Source: Patescibacteria group bacterium (lineage in GTDB: Bacteria > Patescibacteriota > Patescibacteriia > UBA1558 > UBA10009). Taken from it: a DNA stretch of 64,000 bases. The notes beneath the pieces are model-generated. The model did no database searches. It was not told where the DNA came from and worked only from the letters and a program-made list of their open reading frames with translations. The translations under genes and the position numbers were made by a program. The stretch's first letter is position 1. Each line of letters begins with the position of its first letter. This document shows, one piece after another, positions 12,735-51,776 of this stretch. The stretch spans positions 193,084 to 257,083 of the forward strand of contig JBAZSE010000001.1 of assembly GCA_041662565.1 (NCBI GenBank), written 5' to 3'.

Positions 12735-12770
12735 AAACAGGGTCAAAGATTTTTGACCTTGTTTTTATTT
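12735..12770 (+). repeat. AAACAGGGTCAA element copy A: hairpin terminator after cysS
   Basis: aaacagggtcaaag-atttt-tgaccttgttttt, a 12-bp stem plus T run; core 12-mer shared with copies at 36148, 42554 and 51731. Confidence 0.6.
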
Positions 12771-12773
12771 GTT

Positions 12774-14168
12774 ATGAAATTCAGAAAATCACAATTTGTT
12801 TTTTATGCTTGCATGAGCTTTATTATCGGAGTTGGTTTAGCTTCATTTTTTACCATTTCATGGACTGTTATTTATTTTGCCGGACTAGTCAGCATTATTA
12901 TGATAATTTTTAGTAAAGCCAAATCATCGTGGCAACTGGCTTTTCTTTGTTTTTTGTTTTTTGTTCTGGGTTATGGGCGTTACCAATTATCAATTCCTAT
13001 CATAAATGAAAACCAGATAGCATTTTATAATAATCAAAAAGTCGTTTTTCAAGGTGTGATAGCAGATGAGCCCGATGCAAGATTGGATCAGGTTAAATTA
13101 ACAATTAAAAGTTGGAAGCTTAAAGCAAAAACCGGTTGGCAAGATATCCAAGGTAATGTTTTGGTTAATACCAATTTATATCCTCAATATAATTATAATG
13201 ATATTGTGGAAATTTCCTGTAAGCTGGCCGCGCCGGAGCCAATAGAAGATTTTCAGTACGATAAATATCTGGCCAAATCCGATATTTATTCTGTTTGCTA
13301 CCGTGGTCAGATTAAATTAATCGGCCATTTTCAAGGCAACTTTGTTAAATCTTTCATTTTAAAAATTAAAAACAAAGTGGTTTGGCTTGCAGGCCAGATT
13401 TTACCCGAACCCCAGGCCTCGTTTTTGGGGGGATTGTTGTGGGGCGCTAAAAAGGGTCTACCGCCCGAAATTTTAAATGATTTTACCGCTGCCGGTGTAA
13501 CTCATATTATTGCTGTTTCCGGCTATAATATTACGATTATTGCTGTGGCGTTAACCAGCATATTTGTAGCTTTAGGTTTTGGCAAAAAAACCGTTTTTTG
13601 GCTGATTGTTTTATGTATTGCTTTTTTTGTGGCAATTACCGGTTTTCCCGCTTCTATTATCAGGGCGGGTATTATGGGCATTATTGTTTTAATGTCACAA
13701 ACTTTGGGCCGGGTTTCTAACATAAAAAATACTTTAGCCCTAACGGCTTTGGTTATGCTGCTAGTTAATCCTAAAATCTTAATCTGGGATGCTGGTTTTC
13801 AATTATCTTTTTTATCTACCATCGGTTTGGTTTATTTGTCGCCACTTATGGTCAAATGGTTAAAGTGGCTGCCGAATTTTTTAGGCATTCAGGATTCATT
13901 AAGTACAACTCTTTCGGCAATTGTTTTTACCACCCCGTTAATATTATGGCAATTCGGCAGATTTTCTGTTGTGGCGCCGCTGGCAAATTTGCTTATTTTA
14001 CCGGCCATTCCTTTGATGATGTTGTTGGGTTTTATAGCCATTGCTCTGGGTTTAATTTGGTTGCCAGCGGGCAGTGTGGCTGCCTGGCCCTTGTGGCTGG
14101 GCTTAACTTATATTTTAAACACGGCACATTGGTTAGCCGCTCTGTCGTGGTCAAATATTAATTTATGA
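12774..14168 (+). CDS. comEC: DNA internalisation competence protein ComEC/Rec2 (membrane domains only)
   Basis: FLGGLLWGAKKGLPPEILNDFTAAGVTHIIAVSGYNITII competence domain; polytopic; the track ORF began at an upstream TTG inside the hairpin, ATG at 12774 preferred. Confidence 0.8.
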   Translation: MKFRKSQFVFYACMSFIIGVGLASFFTISWTVIYFAGLVSIIMIIFSKAKSSWQLAFLCFLFFVLGYGRYQLSIPIINENQIAFYNNQKVVFQGVIADEPDARLDQVKLTIKSWKLKAKTGWQDIQGNVLVNTNLYPQYNYNDIVEISCKLAAPEPIEDFQYDKYLAKSDIYSVCYRGQIKLIGHFQGNFVKSFILKIKNKVVWLAGQILPEPQASFLGGLLWGAKKGLPPEILNDFTAAGVTHIIAVSGYNITIIAVALTSIFVALGFGKKTVFWLIVLCIAFFVAITGFPASIIRAGIMGIIVLMSQTLGRVSNIKNTLALTALVMLLVNPKILIWDAGFQLSFLSTIGLVYLSPLMVKWLKWLPNFLGIQDSLSTTLSAIVFTTPLILWQFGRFSVVAPLANLLILPAIPLMMLLGFIAIALGLIWLPAGSVAAWPLWLGLTYILNTAHWLAALSWSNINL

Positions 14169-15067
14169 AAAAAAAATTTAAAATTCTGATTTGGTTTTTT
14201 TCGGCAGTTTTATCATTATCAGTAATTGCCTGGCAAGCAAGTAGCGATAATGATTTAAAGGTCTATTTTTTTAATATTGGCCAAGGTGATGGTATATTAA
14301 TCAGAACTCCCGATAGGCAAAATATCGTTATTGACGGCGGACCTGATAATTCGTTTATTACTAAACTCGGGGCAACTTTGCCTTTTTACGACCGTACGAT
14401 TGATTTAATGATTTTAACTCATCCCCATGCCGATCATGTCACCGGTTTAATTACGGTTTTGGAAAGGTATCAAGTTAAACAGGTTTTATCTGCTGGCGTA
14501 ATTTATCAAAGCGCTCCGTATTATGGATGGTTAAAACTAATTCAAGAAAAAAATATTCCGATTGTGTTTGCTCAAGCAGGCCAAGAGTTTATTTTTGGTG
14601 AAGTAGATTTAAAAGTAATTTATCCTTGGCAAAATTTTGCTAACAAGGAAATCGTGGAAAAAGGCGATGAAGCCGCAACAAGCGGGTCAATTGATAATTT
14701 AAATAACACCTCGGTGGTTTTAAAAATGGTTTACCGGCAAAATTGCGTTATTTTTACCGGTGATTTGGAAATACCCGGCGAAGAGTTGATTTTAAAAAGT
14801 AAACAAAATATTACGGCCGACATATTAAAAGTGGGCCATCATGGCAGTGATACGGCCACAAGTGAAAAATTTTTAGCCCAAGTTAACCCTAAATACGCCG
14901 TCATCCAGGTTGGCCAGGATAATAAGTTCGGTTTGCCGGATTTGCGGGTTATCAAAAGATTAGCCAAAAAACAGATAAAAATCTACCGGACAGACCAAAA
15001 CAATGATGTGCTTTTCCGTTTAACCGGGCAAAGCATTACAGTTGATTATCCACCGCCCAAACCTTGA
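14165..15067 (+). CDS. Metallo-beta-lactamase fold hydrolase, equivalent to the ComEC C-terminal domain, encoded as a separate overlapping gene
   Basis: LTHPHADHVTGL HxHxDH motif; ATGA overlap with the comEC stop; signal-anchor N-terminus. Confidence 0.8.
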   Translation: MKKKFKILIWFFSAVLSLSVIAWQASSDNDLKVYFFNIGQGDGILIRTPDRQNIVIDGGPDNSFITKLGATLPFYDRTIDLMILTHPHADHVTGLITVLERYQVKQVLSAGVIYQSAPYYGWLKLIQEKNIPIVFAQAGQEFIFGEVDLKVIYPWQNFANKEIVEKGDEAATSGSIDNLNNTSVVLKMVYRQNCVIFTGDLEIPGEELILKSKQNITADILKVGHHGSDTATSEKFLAQVNPKYAVIQVGQDNKFGLPDLRVIKRLAKKQIKIYRTDQNNDVLFRLTGQSITVDYPPPKP

Positions 15068-15112
15068 TTTTCTTTAAAATGTTGGTATAATAGGTATAGT
15101 TTTAACTAATAT

Positions 15113-15508: not shown

Positions 15509-15538
15509 GTAATTAGGAAAATTATTAAATAAATATAT

Positions 15539-16003: not shown

Positions 16004-16009
16004 TTGAAT

Positions 16010-16037: not shown

Positions 16038-16050
16038 TATATTAACCATT

Positions 16051-16893: not shown

Positions 16894-16904
16894 ATCCATA
16901 AGTT

Positions 16905-21299: not shown

Positions 21300-21407
21300 G
21301 GCCTCTCGACCTTGCTCGAGGCCATTCGACTCATTTTTATGGTTGAAGCTACGACTTTATGTCGTAGCGAAAACCATGAGCGACTCCGCTTCGGCGGAGG
21401 AGTCGAA
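21300..21407 (-). other. Highly structured roughly 110-nt leader 5' of the membrane-protein gene (nested hairpins, UUCG loop)
   Basis: 10-bp long-range pairing cattcgactc/gagtcgaatg enclosing hairpins ctacgac/gtcgtag, atggtt/aaccat and ctccgc-ttcg-gcggag; plus ggcctc..gaggcc. Confidence 0.4.
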
Positions 21408-21440
21408 TGGTCGGGGTGACCCGATTTGAACGGGCGACCT
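21408..21440 (-). ncRNA. tRNA 3'-half-like fragment (T-arm GCCCG-TTCAAAT-CGGGT, acceptor CACCCCG, A, CCA) with no matching 5' half adjacent
   Basis: The reverse complement of 21408-21479 lacks a D-arm and anticodon arm; its acceptor strand is complementary to the CGGGGTG at 21654-21660. Confidence 0.45.
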
Positions 21441-21490
21441 TCCGCCTTCGCGTTCCGCTACGGCGGACAGGCATGCACCTAAAAATAAAT

Positions 21491-21567
21491 TGGTCGGGGT
21501 AGCGGGATTTGAACCCACGACCTCACGCACCCCATGCGTGCGCGCTAGCCAACTGCGCTATACCCCG
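21491..21567 (-). tRNA. tRNA-Pro (anticodon GGG) with encoded CCA
   Basis: Manual cloverleaf: CGGGGTA-TA-GCGC-AGTTGGCTA-GCGC-G-CACGC-ATGGGGT-GCGTG-AGGTC-GTGGG-TTCAAAT-CCCGC-TACCCCG-A-CCA. Confidence 0.8.
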
Positions 21568-21622
21568 TTGTGAATATTAAATTTAAGCACCTTTACCCGC
21601 CATAGCCGAAGGCGTCGGCGGG

Positions 21623-21660
21623 CCATGCGTGCGCGGCACAGCCAACTGCGCCACACCCCG
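21623..21660 (-). ncRNA. tRNA 5'-half-like fragment (acceptor strand CGGGGTG, D-arm, anticodon stem, ATGG) homologous to tRNA-Pro, then diverging into a GC hairpin
   Basis: CGGGGTGTGGCGCAGTTGGCTGTGCCGCGCACGCATGG followed by CCCGCC..GGCGGG; no T-arm or 3' acceptor follows. Confidence 0.45.
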
Positions 21661-21669
21661 ATTACTGGC

Positions 21670-36102: not shown

Positions 36103-36147
36103 AGTATTGACATAAAAATCAAAAAGTTATAAGCTGGAAAAAATAAT

Positions 36148-36192
36148 AAAACAGGGTCAAATGCCTTTATCAGGCCGGCCCTGTTTTATTTT
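36148..36192 (+). repeat. AAACAGGGTCAA element copy B, preceded by TTGACA-N15-TATAAG
   Basis: aaaacagggtcaaatgcctttatcaggccggccctgttttatttt. Confidence 0.55.
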
Positions 36193-36282
36193 GATTGAAA
36201 TTTCTATTTTTCAACAATCTTGCAATTAACCAAATCATTTGTCATTTAAAGATAAATAATGATTAATTAACATGTCAACTCT

Positions 36283-36774
36283 ATGGAAAATTTAAAGAAT
36301 AATTATGCCTTTATTGACAGTCAGAATTTAAATTTGGGCATAAGAAGCCAGGGATGGCTTTTGGATTTTAGTCGCTTTAGAGTTTATTTAAAAGATAAAT
36401 ATCATATTAGTAAGGCGTTTTTATTTATCGGCTATGTTGCCGGTAATGAAGTCAGATATGCTGATTTACAACAAGCCGGATATATTATTATTTTTAAACC
36501 CACCTTGGAACAAAAAATTGGTAACAAGGTGGTGGTTAAGGGTAATGTTGACGCTGATTTGGTTTTACATACCATGATTCAATATGGTAATTACAGCCAA
36601 GCCGTTATTGTTTCTGGCGATGGGGACTTTTATTGTTTAGTTGAATATTTAACAGAAAAAGAAAAATTATTGAAAATTATTGTACCTAATAAAAAATACT
36701 CCTCTTTATTAAGAAGATTTAGTTATTTTATTGTTAATATTAGTTTATTCCGGAGTAAACTTGAGAGAAAATAA
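36283..36774 (+). CDS. NYN/LabA-like (PIN-fold) domain protein
   Basis: YAFIDSQNL..NVDADLV..VIVSGDGDF conserved acidic residues. Confidence 0.65.
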   Translation: MENLKNNYAFIDSQNLNLGIRSQGWLLDFSRFRVYLKDKYHISKAFLFIGYVAGNEVRYADLQQAGYIIIFKPTLEQKIGNKVVVKGNVDADLVLHTMIQYGNYSQAVIVSGDGDFYCLVEYLTEKEKLLKIIVPNKKYSSLLRRFSYFIVNISLFRSKLERK

Positions 36775-36930
36775 AAGAGAGGCATTCCCTCGGGACAAAA
36801 CCCTTTGGTAGTCCTCTCATCGTGATAAAGTTATTTTACCAAATTGGTTTTATTTGTAAATATTGACATAATTCATAAAAGATGGTATCTTAATATATTA
36901 AGCTATTGTTCATTAAATTTTACCTAATAT

Positions 36931-36979
36931 TAGCCACGGTTTTTAGCTTGTTTAAAAAATAGGTTGAAAACCGCGGCTA
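36931..36979 (+). promoter_or_regulatory. 13-bp near-perfect inverted repeat TAGCCACGGTTTT/AAAACCGCGGCTA upstream of ORF 37046
   Basis: Read directly; one mismatch. Confidence 0.4.
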
Positions 36980-37045
36980 ATGGCAGCTAGCGGCATAAAC
37001 CAGGCATATCCTATAGAGGGTGCGCCACAAATTTAGGAGTACACC

Positions 37046-42510: not shown

Positions 42511-42553
42511 TAATTGACAAATTTTAAGGGTTTTGTAAAATAGAATAAATACA

Positions 42554-42600
42554 AACAGGGTCAAACAGCTATTATTAATGGCTTTGGCCTTTTTTTATTA
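42554..42600 (+). repeat. AAACAGGGTCAA element copy C (left copy of a 45-bp direct repeat), preceded by TTGACA-N16-TAAAAT
   Basis: aaacagggtcaaacagctattattaatggctttggcctttttttatta. Confidence 0.7.
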
Positions 42601-42670
42601 ACGACGTAGAGCGAGAGAAGCGAAAAGGTAATCTTTTCGCTTCCGAGCCGAGGAGTTAATATGTAATCAT

Positions 42671-42976
42671 ATGAAAATACAGATTTTGCCAGCAGTCAAT
42701 CAATTTGTATTTTCTTTAGACGAATCAATTATAGCCAAAGTTTTAAGAACTATTGATTTATTGGAAAGATTCGGCAATCAATTACAATTACCTCACAGTA
42801 AATCAGTTGGCCACCGCCTGTTTGAGTTAAGAATTCACGGCCGTCAAGAAATCCGTATTTTTTATGGTTATTATGAAAACAGAGCAATTTTGCTTCATGG
42901 TTTAATTAAAAAATCCAATAAAATTCCAAAACATGAATTAAGTACAGCTTATAGTCGTTTTAAAGATTTGACATAG
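42671..42976 (+). CDS. HigB/RelE-like (Gp49 family) type II toxin
   Basis: LFELRI..RIFYGYY..ILLHGLIKKSNKIPKHE pattern; toxin precedes an XRE antitoxin. Confidence 0.65.
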   Translation: MKIQILPAVNQFVFSLDESIIAKVLRTIDLLERFGNQLQLPHSKSVGHRLFELRIHGRQEIRIFYGYYENRAILLHGLIKKSNKIPKHELSTAYSRFKDLT

Positions 42977-43039
42977 TATAACATATACGTTATAATTGGC
43001 AATGAGTGAGGAGAGAAAATTTATTTTCTCTCCAAACGA

Positions 43040-43345
43040 ATGAACCAATTATATAAAATATACTTATTTTATATGGAATCCTATAAAAATTTTAAAAACA
43101 AGCTGTTAAAGAATCCAAATATTAAAAAGGCCTATGATGAATTAGGGCCTGAATTTGCCGTTATTCGGATGATTATAGCTAAAAGGCTCGCCGCTGGGCT
43201 TACCCAAACTCAGTTGGCTAAAAAATTGGGCACCAAGCAATCGGCTATTTCACGTCTGGAACAGGGATCGGCTAATCCATCCCTGGCTTTATTGGTTAAA
43301 CTTTCCAAAGCCCTTAATGCCAAGCTGGAAATTTCCATTTCTTAA
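43040..43345 (+). CDS. HigA-like XRE-family HTH antitoxin
   Basis: LTQTQLAKKLGTKQSAISRLEQG helix-turn-helix. Confidence 0.7.
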   Translation: MNQLYKIYLFYMESYKNFKNKLLKNPNIKKAYDELGPEFAVIRMIIAKRLAAGLTQTQLAKKLGTKQSAISRLEQGSANPSLALLVKLSKALNAKLEISIS

Positions 43346-43375
43346 AAGTATTAAGTTAAGGTGTGAAATTAAATT

Positions 43376-43573
43376 ATGATAAAAAATTTAAAAAATAAGA
43401 AAAATATTTGTAAACACGATTATAAAAATGCAGTACAGGTTGGCAATATTGATTATCAATGTCGTTTGTGTGGAAAATTACTCGATCCATGCGAGTGGTT
43501 TTTGATGAATAGTTTTGAATTTATTGATGTTGATGTAGTGAATAAAAAAATAACAAAAAAACGCCCTAGTTAA
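43376..43573 (+). CDS. Small zinc-ribbon-like protein
   Basis: CKHDY...CRLCGKLLDPC; 65 aa. Confidence 0.3.
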   Translation: MIKNLKNKKNICKHDYKNAVQVGNIDYQCRLCGKLLDPCEWFLMNSFEFIDVDVVNKKITKKRPS

Positions 43574-43688
43574 AGGGCCTTTTCAACCACGTTCCTATGC
43601 CGGTTGTCCCAGCCACGCCACCATCCGGTGACAGTTCGGAATACAGGTTTTTGTTTTTTTACGATATAATAACTTATTAACAGTGTCA

Positions 43689-43714
43689 AACCGCCCTCTC
43701 TGGGCGGTTTTTTG
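43689..43714 (+). terminator. Hairpin AACCGCCC-TCTCT-GGGCGGTT plus T6 in a GC-rich 220-nt spacer
   Basis: Read directly. Confidence 0.6.
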
Positions 43715-43797
43715 CACCCCAATCCACCACCGCCTGGTCCGCCTAGACGTAGTGCTGGCGGATTGCCAAACCAATATGAAAGTGGTACATTTTATAA

Positions 43798-44154
43798 ATG
43801 AATAATGATCAAAATACCAAACTCATTGAGCTTAAGGATTTCATTGATCAGTTTAGACAAGTCAGGGATTGGCAAAAATTCCATAACCCCAAGGATTTAG
43901 CCGAGGCCATAAGTGTGGAAGCGTCTGAGCTAATGGAATTGTTTTTATGGGGCGATAAACAGGAGTTTACCGATAAGGTTAATAACGATCCTGAATTTAA
44001 AACCAAGGTCAGTGATGAACTAGCTGATGTTTTAATCTACTGTATTGAATTTTCGCTTACCACGGGCATTGATCTATCAACTGCCATTATGGAAAAAATG
44101 ACCAAAAATGCTATTAAGTATCCGGTGGAGAAGGGTAAAAGGGAAGTTGGATAA
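43798..44154 (+). CDS. MazG-like nucleoside triphosphate pyrophosphohydrolase (all-alpha NTP-PPase)
   Basis: EASELMELF...DELADVLIYCIEFS EExxE/DxxxD motifs; 118 aa. Confidence 0.7.
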   Translation: MNNDQNTKLIELKDFIDQFRQVRDWQKFHNPKDLAEAISVEASELMELFLWGDKQEFTDKVNNDPEFKTKVSDELADVLIYCIEFSLTTGIDLSTAIMEKMTKNAIKYPVEKGKREVG

Positions 44155-44159
44155 GTATA

Positions 44160-44924
44160 ATGGGTTATGAAATTATGGCAAATTTAACCACGCTTGAAAA
44201 ACAGGTACTTGAAAAATTATTCCAAATGAATGGTGGTTATGTTTTGAATTTTTCAGATCGGACAATGAGAGAGTTTTTTAGAGACGATATAGGAATTGAT
44301 ATTTACAATCAAAAATATAACTATTTAAGCGGTTCAAAAGCTAATCGTATGCGTGGTTTGTGGTTAGAGGCAGATGAGAAAACTGTAGGTAAAAGTTTGT
44401 TGAAACTTATTGAATACATTGAAAATGAAATTTTGCTTGATAATTTAAAGCGAGTAGATTTTCCGAACGATAGAATGACCACTGTAAAAAATATTGGGGA
44501 AAAACTTCTTGGAACAAAAATAAAAATGGAAAATAAATCGCAAGCTACTTTTAAAAATGGCAACATAAATATAACCTTACAAAAAGAAGTTTTTGATCAT
44601 GTGCAAAAATTGTTGAATAGCGGGCATTATTTTAATGCCGTAGAAGAAGCTTATAAAATTGTTAGAAAAAAATTAAAAGACATTTCAGGAAAAGAGAAAG
44701 CTACAGATGCTTTTAGTTATGAAAATTGCGAAAAGATTTTTGGACATCCGCCTGTCGATGATGCAGAAAATGATTTTTTTGAAGGTATAAAATTTTTGCA
44801 TATGGCAATCCAGTTTTTAAGAAACGAAAAGGCGCACACGCCAGCTCGTGATCTCGATAAAAATTTAGCCATTCACTACATTTCGCTTGCTAGTTTGGCG
44901 TATGATCTAATAACCAGAAAATAA
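44160..44924 (+). CDS. HEPN-domain protein (Rx4H motif; TIGR02391-like)
   Basis: C-terminal FLRNEKAHTP matches HEPN Rx4-6H; alpha-helical; 254 aa; 5 nt after mazG-like. Confidence 0.5.
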   Translation: MGYEIMANLTTLEKQVLEKLFQMNGGYVLNFSDRTMREFFRDDIGIDIYNQKYNYLSGSKANRMRGLWLEADEKTVGKSLLKLIEYIENEILLDNLKRVDFPNDRMTTVKNIGEKLLGTKIKMENKSQATFKNGNINITLQKEVFDHVQKLLNSGHYFNAVEEAYKIVRKKLKDISGKEKATDAFSYENCEKIFGHPPVDDAENDFFEGIKFLHMAIQFLRNEKAHTPARDLDKNLAIHYISLASLAYDLITRK

Positions 44925-44926
44925 TC

Positions 44927-45910
44927 ATGACGAATAAATCATCAAATAAAAACTTGCGTAAGGCAAGCCAAGCAAAGAAAGACGAGTTTTATACCCAACT
45001 TTCTGATATTGAAAATGAGCTTAAGCATTATAAAGATCAATTTCGTGGCAAAGTGGTATTTTGTAATTGTGATGACCCCAAAGAAAGCAATTTTGTCAAA
45101 TATTTCAGCATGAATTTTGAGCATTTAGGATTGAAGAAATTAATCGCCACGCACTATAAAGATGCGAATTTGTTTACTAAAGAAGCGCCATATAAATTGG
45201 AATACACCGGCGATAAAAACGGTAATCGCACACCCGATCCGAGTGAATTCATGAAAAAGATGATTGGTACGGGCGACTTCCGTAGCGAAGAATGTATCAA
45301 ACTGCTTAAAGAAGCCGATATAGTGGTGACCAACCCGCCATTTTCTCTATTCCGTGAATACGTTGCGCAGCTTATCGAATACAGGAAGAAATTTTTGATT
45401 ATGGGTAATCAAAATGCGATTACTTATAAAGAAATTTTTAAATTAATTAAAGAGAATAAGATGTGGCTCGGGCAAAGTCTAAATGGTAAAAATATCTTAT
45501 TTGAAATTCCAGATTATTATGAAAGTTACTACAAAATTATAGGCGGTAAAAAATATGCATTTCCAAAAGGTGTAGTATGGTTTACTAACCTTGATGTGCC
45601 AAAACGAAGTGAAGAAATGGTATTGTACAAGAAGTATATTAAAAAAGATTATCCTACATATGATAATTATGATGCGATAAATATCGACAGGACAGAACAG
45701 ATTCCTCTAGATTATGCTGGAGGCATGGGCGTGCCGATTACTTTTTTACATAAATACAATCCTAAGCAATTTGAGATTTTAGATGGGCTTAATCGTTATA
45801 GTATTTTATTTGGACCCACTAAGGAAACTAGAGGTAAATATTTAGCACAAATAAATGGTAAGCCTATTTATGTTCGAATTGTAATTAAAAACAAGAAAGT
45901 AAAAAAATAA
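44927..45910 (+). CDS. N6-adenine DNA methyltransferase-like protein (NPPF motif IV)
   Basis: VVTNPPFSLF catalytic motif; EFYTQ N-terminus; 327 aa; 2 nt after the HEPN gene. Confidence 0.6.
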   Translation: MTNKSSNKNLRKASQAKKDEFYTQLSDIENELKHYKDQFRGKVVFCNCDDPKESNFVKYFSMNFEHLGLKKLIATHYKDANLFTKEAPYKLEYTGDKNGNRTPDPSEFMKKMIGTGDFRSEECIKLLKEADIVVTNPPFSLFREYVAQLIEYRKKFLIMGNQNAITYKEIFKLIKENKMWLGQSLNGKNILFEIPDYYESYYKIIGGKKYAFPKGVVWFTNLDVPKRSEEMVLYKKYIKKDYPTYDNYDAINIDRTEQIPLDYAGGMGVPITFLHKYNPKQFEILDGLNRYSILFGPTKETRGKYLAQINGKPIYVRIVIKNKKVKK

Positions 45911-45911
45911 T

Positions 45912-47003
45912 ATGAAAATTGAATTACATAAAATTCCAGTATATAAGGTGATTGCCGGTTACAGGGATAGCGCCGAGGAGGGCGTGGTGGCTTATAGCGG
46001 TAAACTTGATATTCGTCCGAAGTATCAGCGTGAGTTTGTCTACAAGGGTCACCAGCGTGACGCCGTTATAAAGACAATCAAAAACGGTTTTCCTCTTAAC
46101 GTGATGTATTGGGTTAAAACTGACGAGGGTAACTTTGAGGTTTTAGACGGCCAACAGCGTACTATTAGCGTAGGCCAATATGTAAACGGAGATTTTTCAC
46201 TTAATGATCGTTTTTTTCATAACTTGACTAATGAGGAACAAAGGCAGATTTTGGATTATGAACTCATGATTTATTTTTGCGAGGGCACGGACAAAGAACG
46301 GCTAGACTGGTTCAGGATAATTAATATTGCTGGAGAAAAATTGACTGACCAGGAATTGCGCAATGCAGTGTACACCGGCTCATGGTTGAGTGATGCTAAA
46401 TTGAAATTTAGCAAATCAAACTGTGCGGCATATCATCTAGCAAATGATGGCGGACAATTAGTAAGTGGATCACCAATACGACAAGAGTATTTGGAAACGG
46501 CACTTTCGTGGATTAACGATGGCAAGATAGAGGACTACATGGCTAAGCATCAGCATAATAAGAACGCTGACGAGCTGTGGGAATATTTTCAGAGTGTAAT
46601 TGCATGGGTACGAAAGACTTTTACAAATTATCGTCGAGAAATGAGCGGTGTACAATGGGGCGAACTGCATAACAAATTCAAAGACAAGAAACTGAACGCT
46701 GGCAAATTAGAAGCCGAAATCAAAGATTTAATGCAAGATGAAGATGTAACGAAAAAATCCGGTATTTATCCGTATGTTTTAACTCAAAATGAAAAATTTC
46801 TAAACATCCGTGCTTTTACCGATAAACAAAAGAGAGAGGCCTACGAAAGACGGAAAGGCGTTTGTGCAAAGTGTAAAAAATCTTTTGAAATTGGAGAAAT
46901 GGAAGCTGATCATATAAAACCTTGGCATGAGGGCGGTAAAACTGTTTCAGAAAATTGCCAGATGTTATGTAAGCAAGATAACAGAACTAAGTCTGGAAAA
47001 TAA
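45912..47003 (+). CDS. DUF262 (ParB-like, DGQQR motif) fused to a C-terminal HNH endonuclease
   Basis: IRPKYQREFVY and VLDGQQRTISVG DUF262 signatures; CAKCKK..EADHIKPWHEGGKTVSENCQMLCKQDNRTK HNH motif; start 1 nt after the MTase stop. Confidence 0.7.
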   Translation: MKIELHKIPVYKVIAGYRDSAEEGVVAYSGKLDIRPKYQREFVYKGHQRDAVIKTIKNGFPLNVMYWVKTDEGNFEVLDGQQRTISVGQYVNGDFSLNDRFFHNLTNEEQRQILDYELMIYFCEGTDKERLDWFRIINIAGEKLTDQELRNAVYTGSWLSDAKLKFSKSNCAAYHLANDGGQLVSGSPIRQEYLETALSWINDGKIEDYMAKHQHNKNADELWEYFQSVIAWVRKTFTNYRREMSGVQWGELHNKFKDKKLNAGKLEAEIKDLMQDEDVTKKSGIYPYVLTQNEKFLNIRAFTDKQKREAYERRKGVCAKCKKSFEIGEMEADHIKPWHEGGKTVSENCQMLCKQDNRTKSGK

Positions 47004-47094
47004 AAACGGCAGTATTAAGATTTAATAGATTGTATGTATTTATTGCAAAATTTTAAGAAAAGTGATAAAGTCATGGTGAATTATCTATAAAAAT

Positions 47095-48120
47095 ATGGAC
47101 AAAAAAGCATTTATTCAACAAATTGAAAAATTAAGGAATTCTAAGGTTATTACCTATTTAACTAGTGATAGGCAGGGTCCTGTTAACGCTAGAATTGCCA
47201 TGGATATAGTGCCTATTATAAGCAAGCAGTTAATGGCTATTGGTAAAACTGAAAATATCGATCTATTTTTGTATAGTTCGGGTGGCGACACCATGGTGCC
47301 ATGGAGATTGGTTTCCATGATCCGCGAATACTGCGAAAAATTTTCAGTTATCATTCCATATAAAGCTCATAGTTCCGCAACTATGATTTCTTTAGGCGCT
47401 GATGAAATTGTTATGAGTAATCTTTCAGAGCTTTCGCCAATTGATCCATCAACAGCTAATGTTTTTAATCCTAGTGATCCACAGAATCCTCAAAATAAAA
47501 TTCCTATCTCTGTAGAAGATGTGATGGCTTATTTTGATCTAGCAAAGAATAAGTTTGGCATTAAAAATGACGAAGATCTGGCTAAGATTTTTAATAAATT
47601 TGTGGAAGCCAATCCTCAAATTCATCCTTTGGCCCTAGGTAATATTAATAGGACTCATAATTTAATACGTAACCTCGCTAAGCGTTTACTAAAAAGTCAT
47701 AAAACGCCAATGAGGGAAGAAGAAATTGGTAAAATTGTTGATGATTTTACGGAAAAACTATATTCCCACCAATATTTTATTGGTCGTAAAGAAGCTAAGG
47801 AGGATTTAGGTTTAAAAAATGTTGTTTTTGCTGATGAAAGTTTAGCTAAAGCAATGACCGATTTATACGAAGAATATGCTAGGGAAATGGAATTTGGGAT
47901 TATGTGGAGTCCGGAAAATGAACTTGGTCTTAATGTTATGCAAAACACGAAAGATTATAAGATTGCTTTTATTGAGAGTGATAGTATTATTAATTGTTTT
48001 GAGTTAAAAATTGAATATAGGAAACAACAGATTAATATTATTCAACAAACTCCTCAGGGTCCAATCCAGGTGCCTCAAGAGCAGGTTGGATTTAAGATCG
48101 TTGAGCAGGGTTGGAAATAA
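47095..48120 (+). CDS. SDH-family (S49/ClpP-fold) serine protease
   Basis: LYSSGGDTMVPWRLVSMIRE..AHSSATMISLGADEIVM matches the SDH/ClpP-fold Ser nucleophile region; 341 aa. Confidence 0.55.
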   Translation: MDKKAFIQQIEKLRNSKVITYLTSDRQGPVNARIAMDIVPIISKQLMAIGKTENIDLFLYSSGGDTMVPWRLVSMIREYCEKFSVIIPYKAHSSATMISLGADEIVMSNLSELSPIDPSTANVFNPSDPQNPQNKIPISVEDVMAYFDLAKNKFGIKNDEDLAKIFNKFVEANPQIHPLALGNINRTHNLIRNLAKRLLKSHKTPMREEEIGKIVDDFTEKLYSHQYFIGRKEAKEDLGLKNVVFADESLAKAMTDLYEEYAREMEFGIMWSPENELGLNVMQNTKDYKIAFIESDSIINCFELKIEYRKQQINIIQQTPQGPIQVPQEQVGFKIVEQGWK

Positions 48121-48147
48121 ACTTTAATTAACATAAAAAATTTAACT

Positions 48148-48537
48148 ATGTCAAAACCAGTATTAAATTATATTATAATTTGTGAATCAGTGATAGTATC
48201 AGAGGATGGAAAATTTTCTATATTAAATATTTTTAGTGAAATTAATGCTAAACAATTTCCCGCAGCCCATCCAAAATTTGTTATTGTTAGTAATACCAAG
48301 GGGGAGCCTGGTAATTATAAACAAAAAATAGAAATCGTTAATTTACAAGATAATTCAGTAGCGGCTAAGGTTGAGTCAAGTTTTGGAATTAAAGAGGGCG
48401 GTATTAATGTTTTTTTTGGCAATTTTGTTAACACCATTTTTAATAATTCTGGCAAATATTGGATAAAAGTTACTTATGATGATAAAGATGTGGTCACTAA
48501 TGAAAATGATAACTTTTTCTTTGTTAAGCAGTTATAG
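48148..48537 (+). CDS. Hypothetical beta-rich small protein
   Basis: 129 aa, no motif. Confidence 0.3.
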   Translation: MSKPVLNYIIICESVIVSEDGKFSILNIFSEINAKQFPAAHPKFVIVSNTKGEPGNYKQKIEIVNLQDNSVAAKVESSFGIKEGGINVFFGNFVNTIFNNSGKYWIKVTYDDKDVVTNENDNFFFVKQL

Positions 48538-48539
48538 TT

Positions 48540-49082
48540 GTGTATATGAAAAATTTTGAGTTTAAAACAAATGATGATACTTCTACTACGACCAAGTCTG
48601 ATACATTAATCAGCGAAAGCGAGATAGGGGGAACTTTAAAATTTTTAAATGATCAAATTGTCAAGTTACAAGATAAGGCTAATGAGACAGCTGAAGATTT
48701 TAATCGTTTGGAAGGGCGTACTAACGTATTTAGTAATTTTATAATGGGATTAACATCTTTAGTAGCCGGAGTATTTTTTATTAGTGGAATATTTATTTTT
48801 TTAGATTATTGGAAATATAACCCGGAAAGGTTTGAAAAATTTATGGATAAAACAGAAGAAATTAAAGATAATTTTTATACAAAACAAGAAATGGATAAAA
48901 ATATCAATAATCATTATTTAACTATTAAAGATCAGTTAAATAAGGCTTTTGGCTTTGAAGTGGATTTAGATAATCAAAGTCAAGAGCTTGGGGAATTACG
49001 CAAGAGCAATGAATATTTATTAAAAGTAATTAATTGCCAAAAGGATAAGAGATATTGGCAATTTGAACAATGTTATAAATAA
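48540..49082 (+). CDS. Hypothetical single-TM protein with flanking coiled coils
   Basis: TM LTSLVAGVFFISGIFIFL; 3-nt gap after the previous gene. Confidence 0.3.
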   Translation: MYMKNFEFKTNDDTSTTTKSDTLISESEIGGTLKFLNDQIVKLQDKANETAEDFNRLEGRTNVFSNFIMGLTSLVAGVFFISGIFIFLDYWKYNPERFEKFMDKTEEIKDNFYTKQEMDKNINNHYLTIKDQLNKAFGFEVDLDNQSQELGELRKSNEYLLKVINCQKDKRYWQFEQCYK

Positions 49083-49227
49083 TAAATATTTTTTATTTTA
49101 TAAAATTTTTCCCTTTCTGTGGGATTTTTTATTTTCTTGATCCCCCTCTAAAATCATGCTATAATTCCTAAACAATTTAAATAAATTTGGCCTAAACTCT
49201 AGCTATTGCTGGGGCATGGTATAAAAT

Positions 49228-49325
49228 CGTTGAACACATCCAACCCGTCATTCAGGGCGTGTTCAACGTTGCGTAGGGAAACTTACGTAAGGCCCGCAAG
49301 GGCCTCCTGGTGGCGGGTTTTGTGT
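49228..49325 (+). other. GC-rich structured element (10-bp IR, GNRA hairpin GGCCC-GCAA-GGGCC, terminator-like CCCGC..GCGGGTTTT) in the leader of ORF 49370
   Basis: cgttgaacac..gtgttcaacg; ggcccgcaagggcc; gcgggtttt read directly. Confidence 0.4.
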
Positions 49326-49369
49326 TTCCGACATTTTAAGTCAGTCATTATTAACTAACTTTTTGTTTT

Positions 49370-49831
49370 ATGCAAACAACAAAAAATAAGGAAGAAATAA
49401 TCAACAAAATTTTAAATATTATTGAAACAGCCAAGCGTGAACAAATAGCTTATGATGTGCCAGATTGCGAGGGAGCGTTATGCTTTGATCTGGATTTTAG
49501 TGATATTACCCAGGCGGAAAAGTATAAAATTGGAGGTATTGCCCTGCATGTTTTTGGCGATTACGTAAAAAAGAGGGTCACTAAAGTGGAACAATCAGCT
49601 ATGTTAAAAATCGGCCAAGATGTGATGCTTGGTTCTTTTTTGGCGGCTAGGTTAGGGCATAAGGAGCTCTCGGACGAAATAACCAGGCGTTTGCTGGAAG
49701 CCCGATTGGGTTTACTAAAAGAAAACAAGGAGTTTAATTTTTATGAGCTTTTAGATCAGCAGTTTACGGAATATTTGGAGTTTTGCCAGCAGTATGACAG
49801 TCAAATTGCTTTGGAAAGAGGGGTTGTTTAA
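49370..49831 (+). CDS. Hypothetical protein
   Basis: 153 aa. Confidence 0.3.
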   Translation: MQTTKNKEEIINKILNIIETAKREQIAYDVPDCEGALCFDLDFSDITQAEKYKIGGIALHVFGDYVKKRVTKVEQSAMLKIGQDVMLGSFLAARLGHKELSDEITRRLLEARLGLLKENKEFNFYELLDQQFTEYLEFCQQYDSQIALERGVV

Positions 49832-49874
49832 GATATCTAAGTTGAGCAAAACTTTTTAAAATGGTAGTATTTAT

Positions 49875-50447
49875 ATGATGATAAAAAATCAAATAAAGCT
49901 ACATCAAAAGAATATTAAATATACTCTTCGAGTTAGCGCACGGGCACGGCAAATGAGGTTGGCGATATACTGTGACGGTAATTTTGTAGTTACGGTTCCG
50001 CAAAATGTGAGTGCTAATATTATAGAACAATTTATTATTACCAAGGCGCAGTGGATACTTAATAAATTGGAATATTTTAAAAGTATTGCTGGGCGGGTAT
50101 TTCCGGGCGGAAATAAAAAAGAGTATTTACAATATAAAGATAAGGCGCAGGTGCTGGCGCAAGAAAGGATAGGGTATTTTAATCAAACCTATAATTTTAA
50201 ATTCCATAAAATCAATATTAAAAATCAAAAGTCCCGCTGGGGCAGTTGTTCTAAAAAAGGCAATTTAAATTTTAATTATAAAATAGCTTTGCTTTCAGCG
50301 CGTTTGGCTGATTATATTATTGTCCACGAATTGTGTCATTTAGGGGAATTTAATCATTCCCGCAAGTTTTGGAATTTGGTGGCCTGCGTGATACCTGATT
50401 ATTTGGCCAGAAGAAATGAATTAAAGAAAAATAGAATTAAAAAATAA
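49875..50447 (+). CDS. YgjP-like (DUF45/M48-like, WLM-type) metal-dependent hydrolase
   Basis: C-terminal VHELCHLGEFNHSRKFW HExxH..H motif. Confidence 0.65.
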   Translation: MMIKNQIKLHQKNIKYTLRVSARARQMRLAIYCDGNFVVTVPQNVSANIIEQFIITKAQWILNKLEYFKSIAGRVFPGGNKKEYLQYKDKAQVLAQERIGYFNQTYNFKFHKINIKNQKSRWGSCSKKGNLNFNYKIALLSARLADYIIVHELCHLGEFNHSRKFWNLVACVIPDYLARRNELKKNRIKK

Positions 50448-50450
50448 AAT

Positions 50451-51674
50451 ATGAAAATAAATAATTATCTCAAATTAGTTATCACCGTTTTAGTTTCTTT
50501 ATCAGCCGGTTATCTTGGTTCATTTTTTACTACCCCGGCTATTCCCACTTGGTATGCCAATCTTGTTAAACCGGCTTTAAATCCGCCCTCATGGGTGTTT
50601 GCGCCCGTGTGGACCATTTTGTTTATTTTAATGGGTATTGCCGCGTATTTAGTGTGGCAAAAAGGTTTTAAACGGCAAGAAGTTAAATACGCTTTGGTTA
50701 TTTTTGCGGGCCAACTGATTTTAAATATTGTTTGGTCGGGTATTTTTTTTGGCTGGCAAAACCCGGGTGTTGCCTTTTTGGAATTAATTGTTTTATGGCT
50801 GGCGATTTTATCAACCATCAAGGTTTTTGCCAAAGTTTCTAAAACCGCGGCTTGGCTGTTAGTGCCATATATTTTATGGGTCAGTTTTGCCGGCTATTTA
50901 AATTTTTCCATCTGGCAGCTTAATAATTCGCCTGCGGTGGTAAAAAACAATTCTATTTTTGATCCCCAAAATTGTGCTTATGTTATAGAAGATCAGCCCG
51001 TTGTTTTAACTAATGGCTTAAGCGTGCAGGATGTTGTTGATGCCAACGCCAAAATTACCACCAAATATTTTGGCAATCAAGTTAATGCCGATTTTAATGC
51101 TGATGGTTTGGTTGATGTTGCTTTTTTGGCAACGCAAACTTCGGGCGGAAGTGGAACATTTTATTATACGCTGGTGGCTTTAAATACTTCTACTGGTTGC
51201 CAGGGTTTGGCAGCAGATTTTATCGGGGATAGAATTGCTCCGCAAACTACCGAATTTAAAGATGAGATGATTATCGTAAATTACGCCGATCGTAAAGCTA
51301 CTGAAAGTTTTGATGTGGCGCCATCAATTGGTTTAAGTAAATACTACAAAATTATTGATGGGCAGTTAAGAGCGGTTGTGCCGCCAATGTTGGATTACCG
51401 TAACGATCCAACCGTATTGGCTATTCAAAAAATGCTGATTGCCAAATATCCCAAGTATGCCAAAACCTTAGCCGTTAACCTTAGGCAGCAAACCGATATT
51501 TACGCTGTGGGTGCCATTAGTTTTGAGCCCGGTGAAGCCGGTGGCCAGTATTTAGCCGTAAAAGAAGGGGATAGCTGGCAATTGGTTTACGAAGGCAATG
51601 GCAGTGTTGATTGCGTTGCCATTAAGCAAAATTATCAATTTCCAACCGAAATGCTAGCCGGCTTTTGTGATTAA
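50451..51674 (+). CDS. TspO/MBR (tryptophan-rich sensory protein) domain fused to a roughly 250-aa C-terminal beta-rich domain
   Basis: Five TM helices with Trp-rich loops (PSWVFAPVWTILFILMG); long soluble C-terminus. Confidence 0.6.
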   Translation: MKINNYLKLVITVLVSLSAGYLGSFFTTPAIPTWYANLVKPALNPPSWVFAPVWTILFILMGIAAYLVWQKGFKRQEVKYALVIFAGQLILNIVWSGIFFGWQNPGVAFLELIVLWLAILSTIKVFAKVSKTAAWLLVPYILWVSFAGYLNFSIWQLNNSPAVVKNNSIFDPQNCAYVIEDQPVVLTNGLSVQDVVDANAKITTKYFGNQVNADFNADGLVDVAFLATQTSGGSGTFYYTLVALNTSTGCQGLAADFIGDRIAPQTTEFKDEMIIVNYADRKATESFDVAPSIGLSKYYKIIDGQLRAVVPPMLDYRNDPTVLAIQKMLIAKYPKYAKTLAVNLRQQTDIYAVGAISFEPGEAGGQYLAVKEGDSWQLVYEGNGSVDCVAIKQNYQFPTEMLAGFCD

Positions 51675-51730
51675 AAATAATGTATCAAATTTGACAAAGG
51701 TAGTTATTTTTCTTAAGATATTAATATAAT

Positions 51731-51776
51731 AAACAGGGTCAAGTAGCTATTATTAATGGCTTTGGCCTTTTTTATT
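51731..51776 (+). repeat. AAACAGGGTCAA element copy D (right copy of the 45-bp direct repeat), preceded by TTGACA-N17-TAAGAT
   Basis: aaacagggtcaagtagctattattaatggctttggccttttttattt; about 95% identical to copy C. Confidence 0.7.

What the first reader, a model, noticed from the sequence alone, without database searches (positions are those of the whole stretch)
12735..51776. Four-member family of mini-elements: sigma70-like promoter, then a conserved AAACAGGGTCAA core, then a hairpin and T run
Copies at 12735, 36148, 42554 and 51731 all begin with the same 12-mer. Each sits 15-25 nt downstream of a TTGACA/TTGTCT-N15-17-TAnAnT promoter-like pair and ends in a hairpin plus U-run, although the loops differ between copies. 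All lie at the 3' ends of unrelated genes (cysS, ATP-cone nuclease, tal) or before mazF-like. They could be a REP/BIME-like terminator-repeat family. They could also be a family of short independently transcribed sRNAs, with predicted products of roughly 45-70 nt beginning near the conserved core.
Basis: seen in the sequence. Interest (0 to 1): 0.55.

Follow-up and report, generated by a model that had tools for sequence, protein, structure and literature searches.

The report
Portable promoter-plus-terminator leader before accessory genes
Four short, related DNA modules in this candidate-phyla-radiation (Patescibacteria) genome each combine a strong promoter with an immediately following terminator hairpin placed just in front of a toxin, nuclease or competence gene, so they most likely act as leaky gates on those genes rather than as mobile repeats or ordinary stand-alone small-RNA genes.

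Summary
AAACAGGGTCAA occurs exactly four times, all on the + strand (12735, 36149, 42553, 51731), against 0.02 expected by chance.

The 12-mer is not followed by a hairpin. It is the 5' arm of the hairpin, which is followed by a T-run, so each copy looks like an intrinsic terminator. Three copies have a consensus TTGACA-N16/17-TAnnnT promoter ending 11-13 nt upstream. The cysS copy has only a weak one.

The same architecture recurs in related Patescibacteria. About 19 further distinct modules were found, including three within 2.3 kb of a Komeilibacteria MAG. Every module whose downstream sequence was held sits just 5' of a same-strand gene, and almost all of those are accessory genes (NYN, MazF, HigB-like, DUF3800, Bro-N, RadC, RhuM/Fic, and others). 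The start codon is often only 6-30 nt after the T-run, which leaves no room for another promoter.

The fold is specific to the gene-sense strand (many G·U pairs). The 5' arm is invariant while the 3' arm and the hairpin interior drift.

Best reading: a portable promoter-leader-terminator (attenuator) module that also terminates the upstream gene and releases a 40-65 nt RNA as a by-product. It is not REP/BIME. No Rfam family matches it. The factor that would control read-through, if there is one, is unknown.

The parts
12688..12715 (+). c1: weak promoter-like pair TTGTCT-16-TAGAGT, overlapping the cysS stop codon (12715-12717)
   Evidence: Read from the sequence. It matches only 8 of 12 consensus positions and is not listed among the strong sites.
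12735..12774 (+). c1: hairpin AAACAGGGTCAAA-GATT-TTTGACCTTGTTT followed by a T-rich tail. It lies 18 nt after cysS and 10 nt before the comEC ATG.
   Evidence: -16 kcal/mol, z -4.7; listed as a terminator with 13 pairs.
12775..14168 (+). Gene downstream of c1: ComEC (Competence + DUF4131 domains)
36107..36135 (+). c2 promoter TTGACA-17-TAAGCT, starting 5 nt after the stop codon of the Mrr_cat nuclease gene
   Evidence: TTGACA is conserved in the syntenic orthologue L107 while the spacer has diverged.
36149..36195 (+). c2 hairpin AAACAGGGTC...GGCCCTGTTT, with an inner GCCT/AGGC stem, followed by TTTTATTTT
   Evidence: -22.4 kcal/mol, z -6.0. 41 of 45 nt are identical to L107 although the flanking DNA is about 70% identical.
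36283..36774 (+). Gene downstream of c2: NYN-domain (PIN-like RNase) protein
42514..42541 (+). c3 promoter TTGACA-16-TAAAAT, starting 4 nt after the tal stop codon. Its spacer is homologous to those of the L042 and L104 modules.
42553..42599 (+). c3 hairpin (AGGGTCAA/TTGGCCTT outer stem, AGCTATT/AATGGCT inner stem) followed by T7
42600..42670 (+). Second part of the c3 leader: CGACGTAGAGCGAGA, then a variable hairpin, then CGAGCCGAGGAG (Shine-Dalgarno-like), then the ATG. The same element precedes MazF in L123/L146.
42671..43345 (+). Genes downstream of c3: a Gp49/HigB-like toxin (42671-42976) and an HTH_3 antitoxin-like gene (43040-43345)
51691..51719 (+). c4 promoter TTGACA-17-TAAGAT, starting 17 nt after the stop codon of the TspO-fusion gene
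51731..51776 (+). c4 hairpin, 43 of 46 nt identical to c3, followed by T6. The MazF ATG follows at 51780.
51780..52574 (+). Genes downstream of c4: a PemK/MazF toxin (51780-52172), then a Phd/YefM-like gene (52317-52574) with its own TTGACA-17-TAAGAT promoter at 52270

Best explanation
Each copy is a portable promoter-leader-terminator module of about 85-100 bp, placed at the 5' end of an accessory gene such as a toxin, nuclease, defence or competence gene.

Proposed mechanism:
1. A sigma-70-type promoter (TTGACA-N16/17-TAAGAT-like) fires, and the transcript starts 0-8 nt before AAACAGGGUC.
2. That sequence is the 5' arm of a hairpin followed directly by a U-run, which makes an intrinsic terminator.
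3. Most transcripts would end after about 40-65 nt, leaving a short hairpin RNA as a by-product. Read-through from the upstream gene would be stopped at the same place.
4. Only polymerases that read through reach the downstream ORF. Its start codon lies a few to a few tens of nt after the U-run, and it has no promoter of its own.

The hairpin is therefore a gate, or attenuator, in the 5' leader.

The 5' arm is invariant while the 3' arm drifts through G·U-tolerated changes and the interior is freely replaced. This suggests that the 5' arm is also read by something shared, a protein or an RNA, that could tune read-through.

What is shown: the architecture, its strand specificity, its conservation and its gene association. 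What is inferred: termination and attenuation. What is speculative: the trans-acting factor.
For: Enrichment:
- Four exact copies against 0.02 expected.

Structure:
- All four copies form hairpins followed by T-runs.
- The gene-sense RNA fold is more stable than its reverse complement in 19 of 22 members (mean -4.8 kcal/mol, Wilcoxon p = 2e-4).
- Of the 230 basal-stem positions, 31 are G·U pairs.

Promoters:
- Three of the nine perfect TTGACA-N16-18-TAnnnT sites on the + strand of the window sit 11-13 nt before a copy.
- A genome scan that did not require a promoter returned mostly unrelated single terminators. The hits from the Komeilibacteria MAG (L042, L083) and the Parcubacteria genome (L093) had TTGACA at the same distance upstream.

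Recurrence in relatives:
- A metagenome scan found about 13 more distinct modules.
- A scan for the architecture alone, with no core required, found three more, two of them in L042, which carries three modules within 2.3 kb.
- The closest MazF homologue, found through its protein sequence alone, carries TTGACA-17-TAAAAT-9-AAACAGGGTCtt, a hairpin, T5 and then the ATG 9 nt later.

Downstream genes:
- All are on the same strand as the module.
- They are NYN (six), MazF (three), Bro-N (three), DUF3800, RadC, RhuM/Fic, Y1_Tnp, 23S_rRNA_IVP, Peptidase_C39_2, HigB-like and ComEC.
- The gap from the U-run to the ATG is 30 nt or less in about 14 of 23 members (my count from the sequences).

Conservation:
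- The orthologous pair c2 and L107 keeps the -35 hexamer, the core, the hairpin and the T-run, while the promoter spacer and the initial transcribed region have diverged.
- In the four members found without using the core as bait, the 5' arm has 0 of 40 changes and the 3' arm has 8 of 40 (Fisher p = 0.003).

Precedents for strong promoters with leader terminators that release short RNAs:
- greA/GraL (PMC2836576).
- Lambdoid PR'-tR'/StxS upstream of Shiga toxin genes (PMC7547250).
Against: - There are no expression data. Transcription start sites, termination efficiency and read-through are all inferred from sequence.
- The leader is too short, at 0-8 nt before the hairpin, to hold an alternative antiterminator structure. 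No candidate regulator was found in the window, and no RNA complementary to the core was found either.
- c1 lacks a good promoter and may simply be the cysS terminator.
- c2, c3, L111 and L132 have 70-180 nt between the hairpin and the ATG, which is enough room for a second promoter.
- Most members were found with the exact core as bait, so the invariance of the core is partly a product of how they were found. The independent set has only four members.
- Conservation could reflect recent duplication or gene conversion. c3 and c4 are near-identical, and L042 M1 and M3 appear about 90% identical by eye in the alignment.
Confidence: 0.5

Rival explanations
1. The copies are stand-alone small-RNA genes. 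The 40-65 nt hairpin RNAs are the functional product and act in trans, for example as a decoy or sponge for an RNA-binding protein or nuclease. Their position next to the downstream gene would then be incidental or secondary.
For: - The layout of promoter, RNA and terminator is the same as that of a real sRNA gene in this window. The DUF3800-IX RNA has its own TTGACA promoter and terminator.
- The transcribed part is conserved between species while the promoter spacers drift.
- Leader-terminated RNAs are known to acquire trans functions, as with StxS (PMC7547250) and GraL (PMC2836576).
Against: - The RNA would consist of nothing but the terminator hairpin, and its conserved 5' end would be locked in the stem.
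- The interiors are unrelated between members.
- Every one of the members for which downstream sequence was available is followed by a same-strand ORF. Most of those ORFs have no room for their own promoter.
Confidence: 0.17
2. The copies are a dispersed repeat or cassette boundary. The module would be a selfish or recombinogenic unit, MITE-like or a homology patch for swapping accessory-gene cassettes. It would spread with or between accessory genes, and the hairpin would be a constitutive leaky terminator with no regulated read-through. Conservation would come from common descent and gene conversion.
For: - The units are mosaic. c3 and c4 share a hairpin but have different promoters and different genes. 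The c3 leader is shared with the MazF leader of L123.
- L042 M1 and M3 appear about 90% identical by eye over about 100 bp, and the Bro-N ORF in L042 reads into the next module.
- The module plus NYN unit sits next to tRNA-Pro in L130 but elsewhere in the window.
- The modules are restricted to one lineage. NYN and MazF homologues in other Patescibacteria lack them.
Against: - There are no terminal inverted repeats, no target-site duplications, and no integrase or transposase in the window.
- The unit next to the Y1_Tnp gene has no inverted partner.
- The orthologous pair c2 and L107 is stable at about 70% flank identity, with selective conservation of the functional parts.
- The asymmetry between the 5' and 3' arms is not expected from descent alone.
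Confidence: 0.22
3. The copies are REP/BIME-type repeats. They would be extragenic palindromes mobilised by a RAYT transposase that also serve as terminators.
For: - The copies are extragenic hairpins found after genes.
- One member (L132) precedes a Y1_Tnp (IS200/RAYT-like) gene.
Against: - Only one arm is conserved, and hairpin length and interior vary.
- All copies have a single orientation, with no clusters.
- G·U pairs make the fold strand-specific.
- No inverted copy flanks the Y1_Tnp gene.
- The association with a promoter is not explained by this model.
Confidence: 0.04
4. The 12-mer is a DNA-uptake-sequence-like motif. Such motifs often occur in terminators in competent bacteria, and c1 sits immediately before comEC.
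For: - The motif is a 12-mer located in terminator stems.
- c1 precedes comEC.
- The motif is conserved across related species.
Against: - There are only 4 copies in about 83 kb, none of them in coding DNA, and all on one strand.
- The opposite arm is degenerate.
- The tight linkage to a promoter and to accessory genes is not explained by this model.
Confidence: 0.03

Closest known systems
Leader (promoter-proximal) intrinsic terminators that release short RNAs: E. coli greA leader/GraL (PMC2836576) and lambdoid PR'-tR'/StxS upstream of Shiga toxin genes (PMC7547250)
   Same: A strong promoter is followed within tens of nt by a hairpin and U-run terminator. Most transcripts end as 40-75 nt RNAs, and the gene beyond depends on read-through. 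In the Stx case the gated genes are toxins.
   Different: Here the transcript is essentially only the hairpin. The same 5' arm is reused in front of many unrelated genes within one genome and across species. No Q-like or other antiterminator is known. Nothing has been tested experimentally.
Protein-dependent antitermination with a conserved leader element: LicT/BglG RAT-terminator (PMC5393181), the LoaP leader hairpin (PMC12691694) and the RfaH ops element (as summarised in PMC12691694)
   Same: A short conserved element lies next to or overlapping the 5' side of an intrinsic terminator, in the leaders of several operons, which are often accessory or horizontally acquired.
   Different: There is no room for a separate RAT-like or LoaP-type hairpin upstream of the terminator. 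No cognate regulator gene was identified. Membership of any of these families cannot be claimed.
Type III toxin-antitoxin loci (ToxIN-like; from general knowledge)
   Same: The order is promoter, short RNA, terminator, then toxin gene, with the terminator limiting toxin transcription.
   Different: There are no tandem antitoxin repeats. The downstream genes belong to many unrelated families, including non-nucleases. Some of the toxins have protein antitoxin partners (HTH_3, Phd-like).
REP/BIME and other small dispersed palindromic repeats
   Same: These are short extragenic hairpins repeated around the genome that can act as terminators.
   Different: Only the basal 5' arm is conserved. The fold is strand-specific. 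A promoter is attached. The orientation relative to the downstream gene is fixed. There are no RAYT flanking copies.

Membership tests
Intrinsic (Rho-independent) terminator | Stable G+C-containing stem-loop | tested here: met
   One search gives -14 to -22 kcal/mol and z-scores of -3.4 to -6.0. One search gives the folds for 22 relatives.
Intrinsic (Rho-independent) terminator | U-run immediately 3' of the stem | tested here: met
   All 23 members have at least 4-7 T after the stem.
Intrinsic (Rho-independent) terminator | Transcript release at the U-run | not testable with these tools
   This needs Term-seq or in vitro transcription.
Leader attenuator with trans-acting antiterminator (RAT/LicT, LoaP, Q-like) | Terminator located between the promoter and the regulated ORF | tested here: met
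   The order is promoter, 6-19 nt, hairpin, U-run, then 6-40 nt to the ATG in most members.
Leader attenuator with trans-acting antiterminator (RAT/LicT, LoaP, Q-like) | Conserved recognition element shared by the regulated leaders | tested here: inconclusive
   AAACAGGGTC is invariant in 23 of 23 members, but 19 of them were found with the core as bait. In the four independent members the 5' arm has 0 of 40 changes and the 3' arm has 8 of 40 (p = 0.003).
Leader attenuator with trans-acting antiterminator (RAT/LicT, LoaP, Q-like) | Alternative antiterminator structure, or a separate binding hairpin upstream of the terminator | tested here: not met
   Only 0-8 nt of transcript precede the 5' arm.
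Leader attenuator with trans-acting antiterminator (RAT/LicT, LoaP, Q-like) | Cognate regulator protein | tested here: inconclusive
   No NusG paralogue, CAT/PRD, ANTAR or similar domain appears among the roughly 60 window ORFs scanned. The rest of the genome was not seen.
Independent sRNA gene | Own promoter and own terminator | tested here: met
   Consensus promoters precede c2-c4 and the relatives, and hairpins with U-runs follow. These are in silico calls only.
Independent sRNA gene | Not part of the 5' UTR of the adjacent gene | tested here: not met
   A same-strand ORF starts 6-30 nt after the U-run in about 14 of 23 members, with no intervening promoter.
REP/BIME | Whole imperfect palindrome conserved among copies | tested here: not met
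   Only the basal 10-12 nt of the 5' arm is conserved. Interiors are unrelated and total length runs from 23 to 54 nt.
REP/BIME | RAYT gene flanked by inverted REPs | tested here: not met
   In L132 the Y1_Tnp gene has a module upstream but no inverted partner within 1.5 kb. No Y1 gene was found in the window.
REP/BIME | Copies in both orientations, clustered as BIMEs | tested here: not met
   All copies are single and in the gene-sense orientation.
Integron attC | RYYYAAC / GTTRRRY core sites, an integrase, and promoterless cassettes | tested here: not met
   The core sites are absent from the hairpin ends. No integrase was found in the window. Each unit carries its own promoter.
DNA uptake sequence (DUS/USS) | Very high genomic density, including inside coding DNA and on both strands | tested here: not met
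   There are 4 copies in 64 kb and none in a further 19 kb of flanks. All are intergenic and on the + strand.
Any Rfam family | Covariance-model match | tested here: not met
   No hit overlaps the modules at the gathering threshold, or at E values up to 10 around c3.

The most novel reading that the evidence does not exclude
The invariant 5' arm AAACAGGGUC could be the address label of a genome-wide switch. A dedicated trans-acting factor would bind the nascent 5' arm, block the terminator hairpin and open the adjacent ribosome-loading region. That would switch on, in one step, a whole set of otherwise silenced toxin, nuclease and defence genes in this Patescibacteria lineage. The factor might be an RNA-binding protein, a specialised elongation factor, or a signal induced by phage or stress.
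Probability: 0.18. Interest if true: 0.75.

Novelty: new variant of a known kind. Interest (0 to 1): 0.5.

Why it matters
Gene regulation in candidate-phyla-radiation bacteria is almost unexplored, and they cannot be studied easily in culture. This is a reusable promoter-plus-terminator leader, conserved across species and attached specifically to toxins, nucleases and other accessory genes. It would be a simple and compact way for a very small genome to keep dangerous genes nearly silent, while insulating them from the housekeeping gene upstream.

The module gives a concrete, sequence-defined target for metatranscriptomics: 40-65 nt RNAs beginning near AAACAGGGUC. It also offers a handle for finding the factor that might open the gate. 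It can serve as a marker for accessory-gene units in these genomes.

If read-through turns out to be unregulated, the family is still a useful example of how terminators and promoters are packed together in streamlined genomes. It would be of modest interest in that case.

Tried and rejected
- **Genome-wide pattern scan (core + N4-30 + GRCCYTKTTT).** It returned 102 loci, mostly unrelated single terminators from many phyla. A hairpin forces the second half of the pattern to match, so my chance estimate was far too low. Only the Komeilibacteria and Parcubacteria hits shared the promoter architecture. The four Saccharibacteria hits are one orthologous plain terminator.
- **Rfam.** No family matches the modules.
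- **Core as a general initial-transcribed or 5'-UTR motif of this genome.** Rejected, because other strong promoters in the window are not followed by it.
- **Reverse complement of the core (TTGACCCTGTTT) as a -35 box for an antisense promoter.** The -10 matches are poor. The variants AAACAGGGTCTT and AAACAGGGTCGT destroy the TTGACC yet keep the module.
- **Transcription start inside the 5' arm, so that only upstream transcripts terminate.** The distances from the -10 hexamer to the core, mostly 11-14 nt, place the start upstream of the arm.
- **Complementary partner RNA for the core.** None was found in LOOT, DUF3800-IX, tRNA-Pro or the candidate RNA at 36.9 kb. The only complements are the 3' arms themselves.
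- **Module tied to the NYN or MazF gene families.** Rejected. NYN homologues in four other Patescibacteria genomes, and MazF homologues at 71% identity or less, lack it.
- **c3 and c4 as att-like direct repeats of a 9-kb island.** No integrase lies between them, and each has a different promoter. Not excluded, but unsupported.
- **Covariation counting on a MAFFT alignment.** Seven members with the G-to-T change in the 3' arm were misaligned by 1-2 columns, so pair tables were computed by fixed register in Python instead.
- **Literature search for the sequence.** It found only unrelated primers.

Full report
**1. The observation**

AAACAGGGTCAA occurs exactly four times in the window, all on the + strand, at 12735, 36149, 42553 and 51731. 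Dinucleotide-preserving shuffles give a mean of 0.02 copies, and none of 100 shuffles reaches four.

Reading the sequence and folding it shows that the 12-mer is not followed by a hairpin. It is the 5' arm of the hairpin. The 3' arms are:
- c1: TTTGACCTTGTTT
- c2: GGCCCTGTTT
- c3 and c4: TTGGCCTT

Each hairpin is followed by a T-run. Fold energies are -14 to -22 kcal/mol, with z-scores of -3.4 to -6.0. c3 and c4 share the whole hairpin (43 of 46 nt). The interiors of c1 and c2 are unrelated to it.

**2. Promoters**

| Copy | Promoter | -10 hexamer to core |
|---|---|---|
| c2 | TTGACA-17-TAAGCT (36107) | 13 nt |
| c3 | TTGACA-16-TAAAAT (42514) | 11 nt |
| c4 | TTGACA-17-TAAGAT (51691) | 11 nt |
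| c1 | TTGTCT-16-TAGAGT, inside the end of cysS | 19 nt |

Only nine perfect TTGACA-N16-18-TAnnnT sites exist on the + strand of the window, and three of them precede a copy. Other strong promoters in the window are not followed by the core, so the core is not a general leader motif of this genome.

**3. Gene context**

| Copy | Upstream gene | Downstream gene, same strand |
|---|---|---|
| c1 | cysS | ComEC (ATG 10 nt after the hairpin) |
| c2 | Mrr_cat/AF1548-like nuclease (not an ATP-cone protein) | NYN-domain protein |
| c3 | tal | Gp49/HigB-like toxin with an HTH_3 partner |
| c4 | TspO-fusion gene | PemK/MazF toxin (ATG about 6 nt after the T-run), then a Phd-like gene |

The 9 kb between c3 and c4 is a defence-type island. 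It holds MazG-like, Hypoth_Ymh, EcoRI methylase, GmrSD-HNH, and SDH protease with DUF6941 genes, plus the LOOT and DUF3800-IX RNAs. No integrase or transposase was found anywhere in the window.

**4. Relatives**

The window comes from an 809-kb contig of a "Patescibacteria group bacterium".

*Genome scan without a promoter requirement.* I scanned one genome per species for the core plus a matching 3' arm. It returned 102 loci, mostly unrelated single terminators in many phyla, because a hairpin makes the two halves of the pattern dependent on each other. The hits from a Komeilibacteria MAG (L042, L083) and a Parcubacteria genome (L093) carry TTGACA at the same distance upstream. L042 and L083 have TAAGAT -10 hexamers.

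*Metagenome scan for promoter plus core.* This gave about 13 more distinct units with the full architecture.

*Scan for the architecture alone, with no core required.* This found three more modules, two of them in L042. L042 thus has three modules within 2.3 kb, each in front of one gene (DUF3800, Bro-N, Bro-N). Only two unrelated promoter-to-hairpin units turned up in the same loci.

*Protein-based search.* The closest MazF homologue (77% amino-acid identity, L165) was found through its protein alone. Its upstream region reads TTGACA-17-TAAAAT-9-AAACAGGGTCtt, then a hairpin, then T5, then the ATG. The truly constant part is therefore the 10-mer AAACAGGGTC.

*Limits of the family.* The module is restricted to one lineage:
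- NYN homologues in four other Patescibacteria genomes lack it.
- MazF homologues at 71% identity or less lack it.
- 75 kb of those genomes contains no copy.
- 19 kb of extra flank from the window's own genome, mostly housekeeping genes, adds no copy.

**5. What lies downstream**

In every member for which downstream sequence was held, the next gene is on the same strand. Pfam assignments and reading of the ORFs give:
- NYN (six)
- MazF (three)
- Bro-N (three)
- DUF3800, RadC, RhuM/Fic, Y1_Tnp, 23S_rRNA_IVP, Peptidase_C39_2, a HigB-like toxin and ComEC (one each)
- a few unknowns

By my count, the ATG lies 30 nt or less after the U-run in about 14 of 23 members. That is too little room for a sigma-70 promoter. 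These genes can therefore only be transcribed through the hairpin, which places the hairpin in their 5' leader.

**6. Strand and selection**

The gene-sense RNA fold is more stable than its reverse complement in 19 of 22 members (mean difference -4.8 kcal/mol, Wilcoxon p = 2e-4).

In a fixed-register table of the basal ten pairs there are 184 Watson-Crick pairs, 31 G·U pairs and 15 mismatches. The 3' arm departs from the perfect complement 46 times in 23 members, mostly by changes that G·U pairing tolerates. U9 of the core pairs with G in 15 members and is never replaced by C.

Most members were found with the exact core as bait, so the fair test uses the four that were not (L042 M2 and M3, L141b, L165). 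In those, the 5' arm has 0 of 40 changes and the 3' arm has 8 of 40 (Fisher p = 0.003).

The syntenic orthologue of c2 (L107) has flanks about 70% identical to the window. It keeps the -35 hexamer, the core, the inner stem, the 3' arm and the T-run, while the promoter spacer and the initial transcribed region have diverged.

**7. Mosaicism**

- c3 and c4 share a hairpin but differ in their promoters and genes.
- The second part of the c3 leader (42600-42670) is shared with the MazF leader of L123/L146.
- The promoter spacers of c3, L104 and L042 are homologous, although the genes behind them differ (RadC, DUF3800, Bro-N, HigB-like).
- In L130 a module plus NYN unit sits beside tRNA-Pro, whereas in the window it follows the Mrr gene.

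The module is therefore portable between accessory genes.

**8. Interpretation**

The best-supported reading is a promoter-leader-terminator module. It would terminate the upstream gene and prematurely terminate most transcripts from its own strong promoter, releasing a 40-65 nt RNA. Only read-through would be allowed into a potentially harmful accessory gene.

The hairpin and U-run also abut the start codon, so they could limit ribosome loading as well. This last point is inference.

The invariant 5' arm, set against a drifting 3' arm, hints at recognition by a shared factor. I found no such factor, no complementary RNA, and no space for an alternative RNA structure.

Experimental analogues:
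- The greA leader/GraL, where two thirds of transcripts terminate as 40-60 nt RNAs (PMC2836576).
- Lambdoid PR'-tR' upstream of Shiga toxin genes, whose terminated by-product became the sRNA StxS (PMC7547250).
- Conserved leader elements read by antiterminators, as in LicT/RAT (PMC5393181) and LoaP (PMC12691694).

These show what the module works like. Membership in any of those families is not claimed.

**9. Rivals**

- **Trans-acting sRNA genes.** The layout fits. But the RNA is only a terminator hairpin, and every member precedes a dependent ORF.
- **Dispersed or recombinogenic repeat with an unregulated leaky terminator.** Mosaicism and lineage restriction fit. The absence of repeat hallmarks and the arm asymmetry do not.
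- **REP/BIME.** The defining features were tested and not met.
- **DNA uptake sequence.** The density is far too low and the motif is on one strand only.

No Rfam family covers the modules.

**10. Verdict**

This is a real, conserved family specific to one lineage, and it is not in the RNA family library. It is best filed as a new variant of a known kind, the leader terminator or attenuator. Interest is moderate. It would rise considerably if a dedicated antitermination factor exists.

Noticed in passing
window 36863-36993 (+), compared with L107 10640-10746: A consensus promoter (TTGACA-17-TATCTT) is followed by about 75 nt that are 100% identical between the window and a relative whose coding DNA is only about 70% identical. 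The stretch contains a long hairpin, TTAGCCACGGTTTT...AAAACCGCGGCTAA. It lies upstream of ORF 37046-37627, which has no Pfam hit. No credible Rfam match was found. This is a candidate structured leader or sRNA.
   Followed up: partly
window 43581-43689 (-): The DUF3800-IX RNA (Rfam, 54 bits) is a separate minus-strand unit with its own promoter (TTGACA at 43689, TATCGT) and its own terminator (43578-43563). No DUF3800 gene is nearby. The -35 region of that promoter, TTGACACTGTTA, is the reverse complement of a core-like 12-mer (TAACAGTGTCAA at 43678), which explains that near-match to the family core. In L042 a DUF3800-V RNA sits directly after a DUF3800 gene that carries a module at its 5' end.
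   Followed up: partly
window 49189-49305 (+): A LOOT RNA (Rfam, 79 bits) lies inside the defence-type island between c3 and c4, between an unknown 180-aa ORF and an unknown 153-aa ORF.
   Followed up: no
window 42600-42670 (+); L123/L146: A second conserved leader element follows the c3 terminator. It reads CGACGTAGAGCGAGA, then a variable hairpin, then CGAGCCGAGGAG, then the ATG. It precedes HigB-like in the window but MazF in a relative, so 5' leaders are exchanged between toxin genes.
   Followed up: partly
window 21300-21662: Next to tRNA-Pro (21494-21567, minus strand) there is a partial duplicate of the tRNA at about 21625-21662. There is also a tRNA-like 3' half ending in CCA at about 21403-21475 (minus strand). 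Neither is called by ARAGORN or Rfam. They may be remnants of integration at a tRNA. In relative L130 a module plus NYN unit lies right beside this tRNA.
   Followed up: partly
window 42600-51700: This is a compact defence island with no integrase. It contains HigB-like/HTH, MazG-like, Hypoth_Ymh, EcoRI-type methylase, GmrSD-HNH nuclease, a ClpP-like SDH protease with DUF6941, YgjP-like and TspO-fusion genes. It is bracketed by the two near-identical hairpins c3 and c4.
   Followed up: partly
L113 about 600 (+) and L129 about 217 (+): Two further units with the order consensus promoter, hairpin, T-run, but with unrelated stems. The promoter-then-terminator layout is therefore not unique to the AAACAGGGTC family in these genomes.
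   Followed up: no
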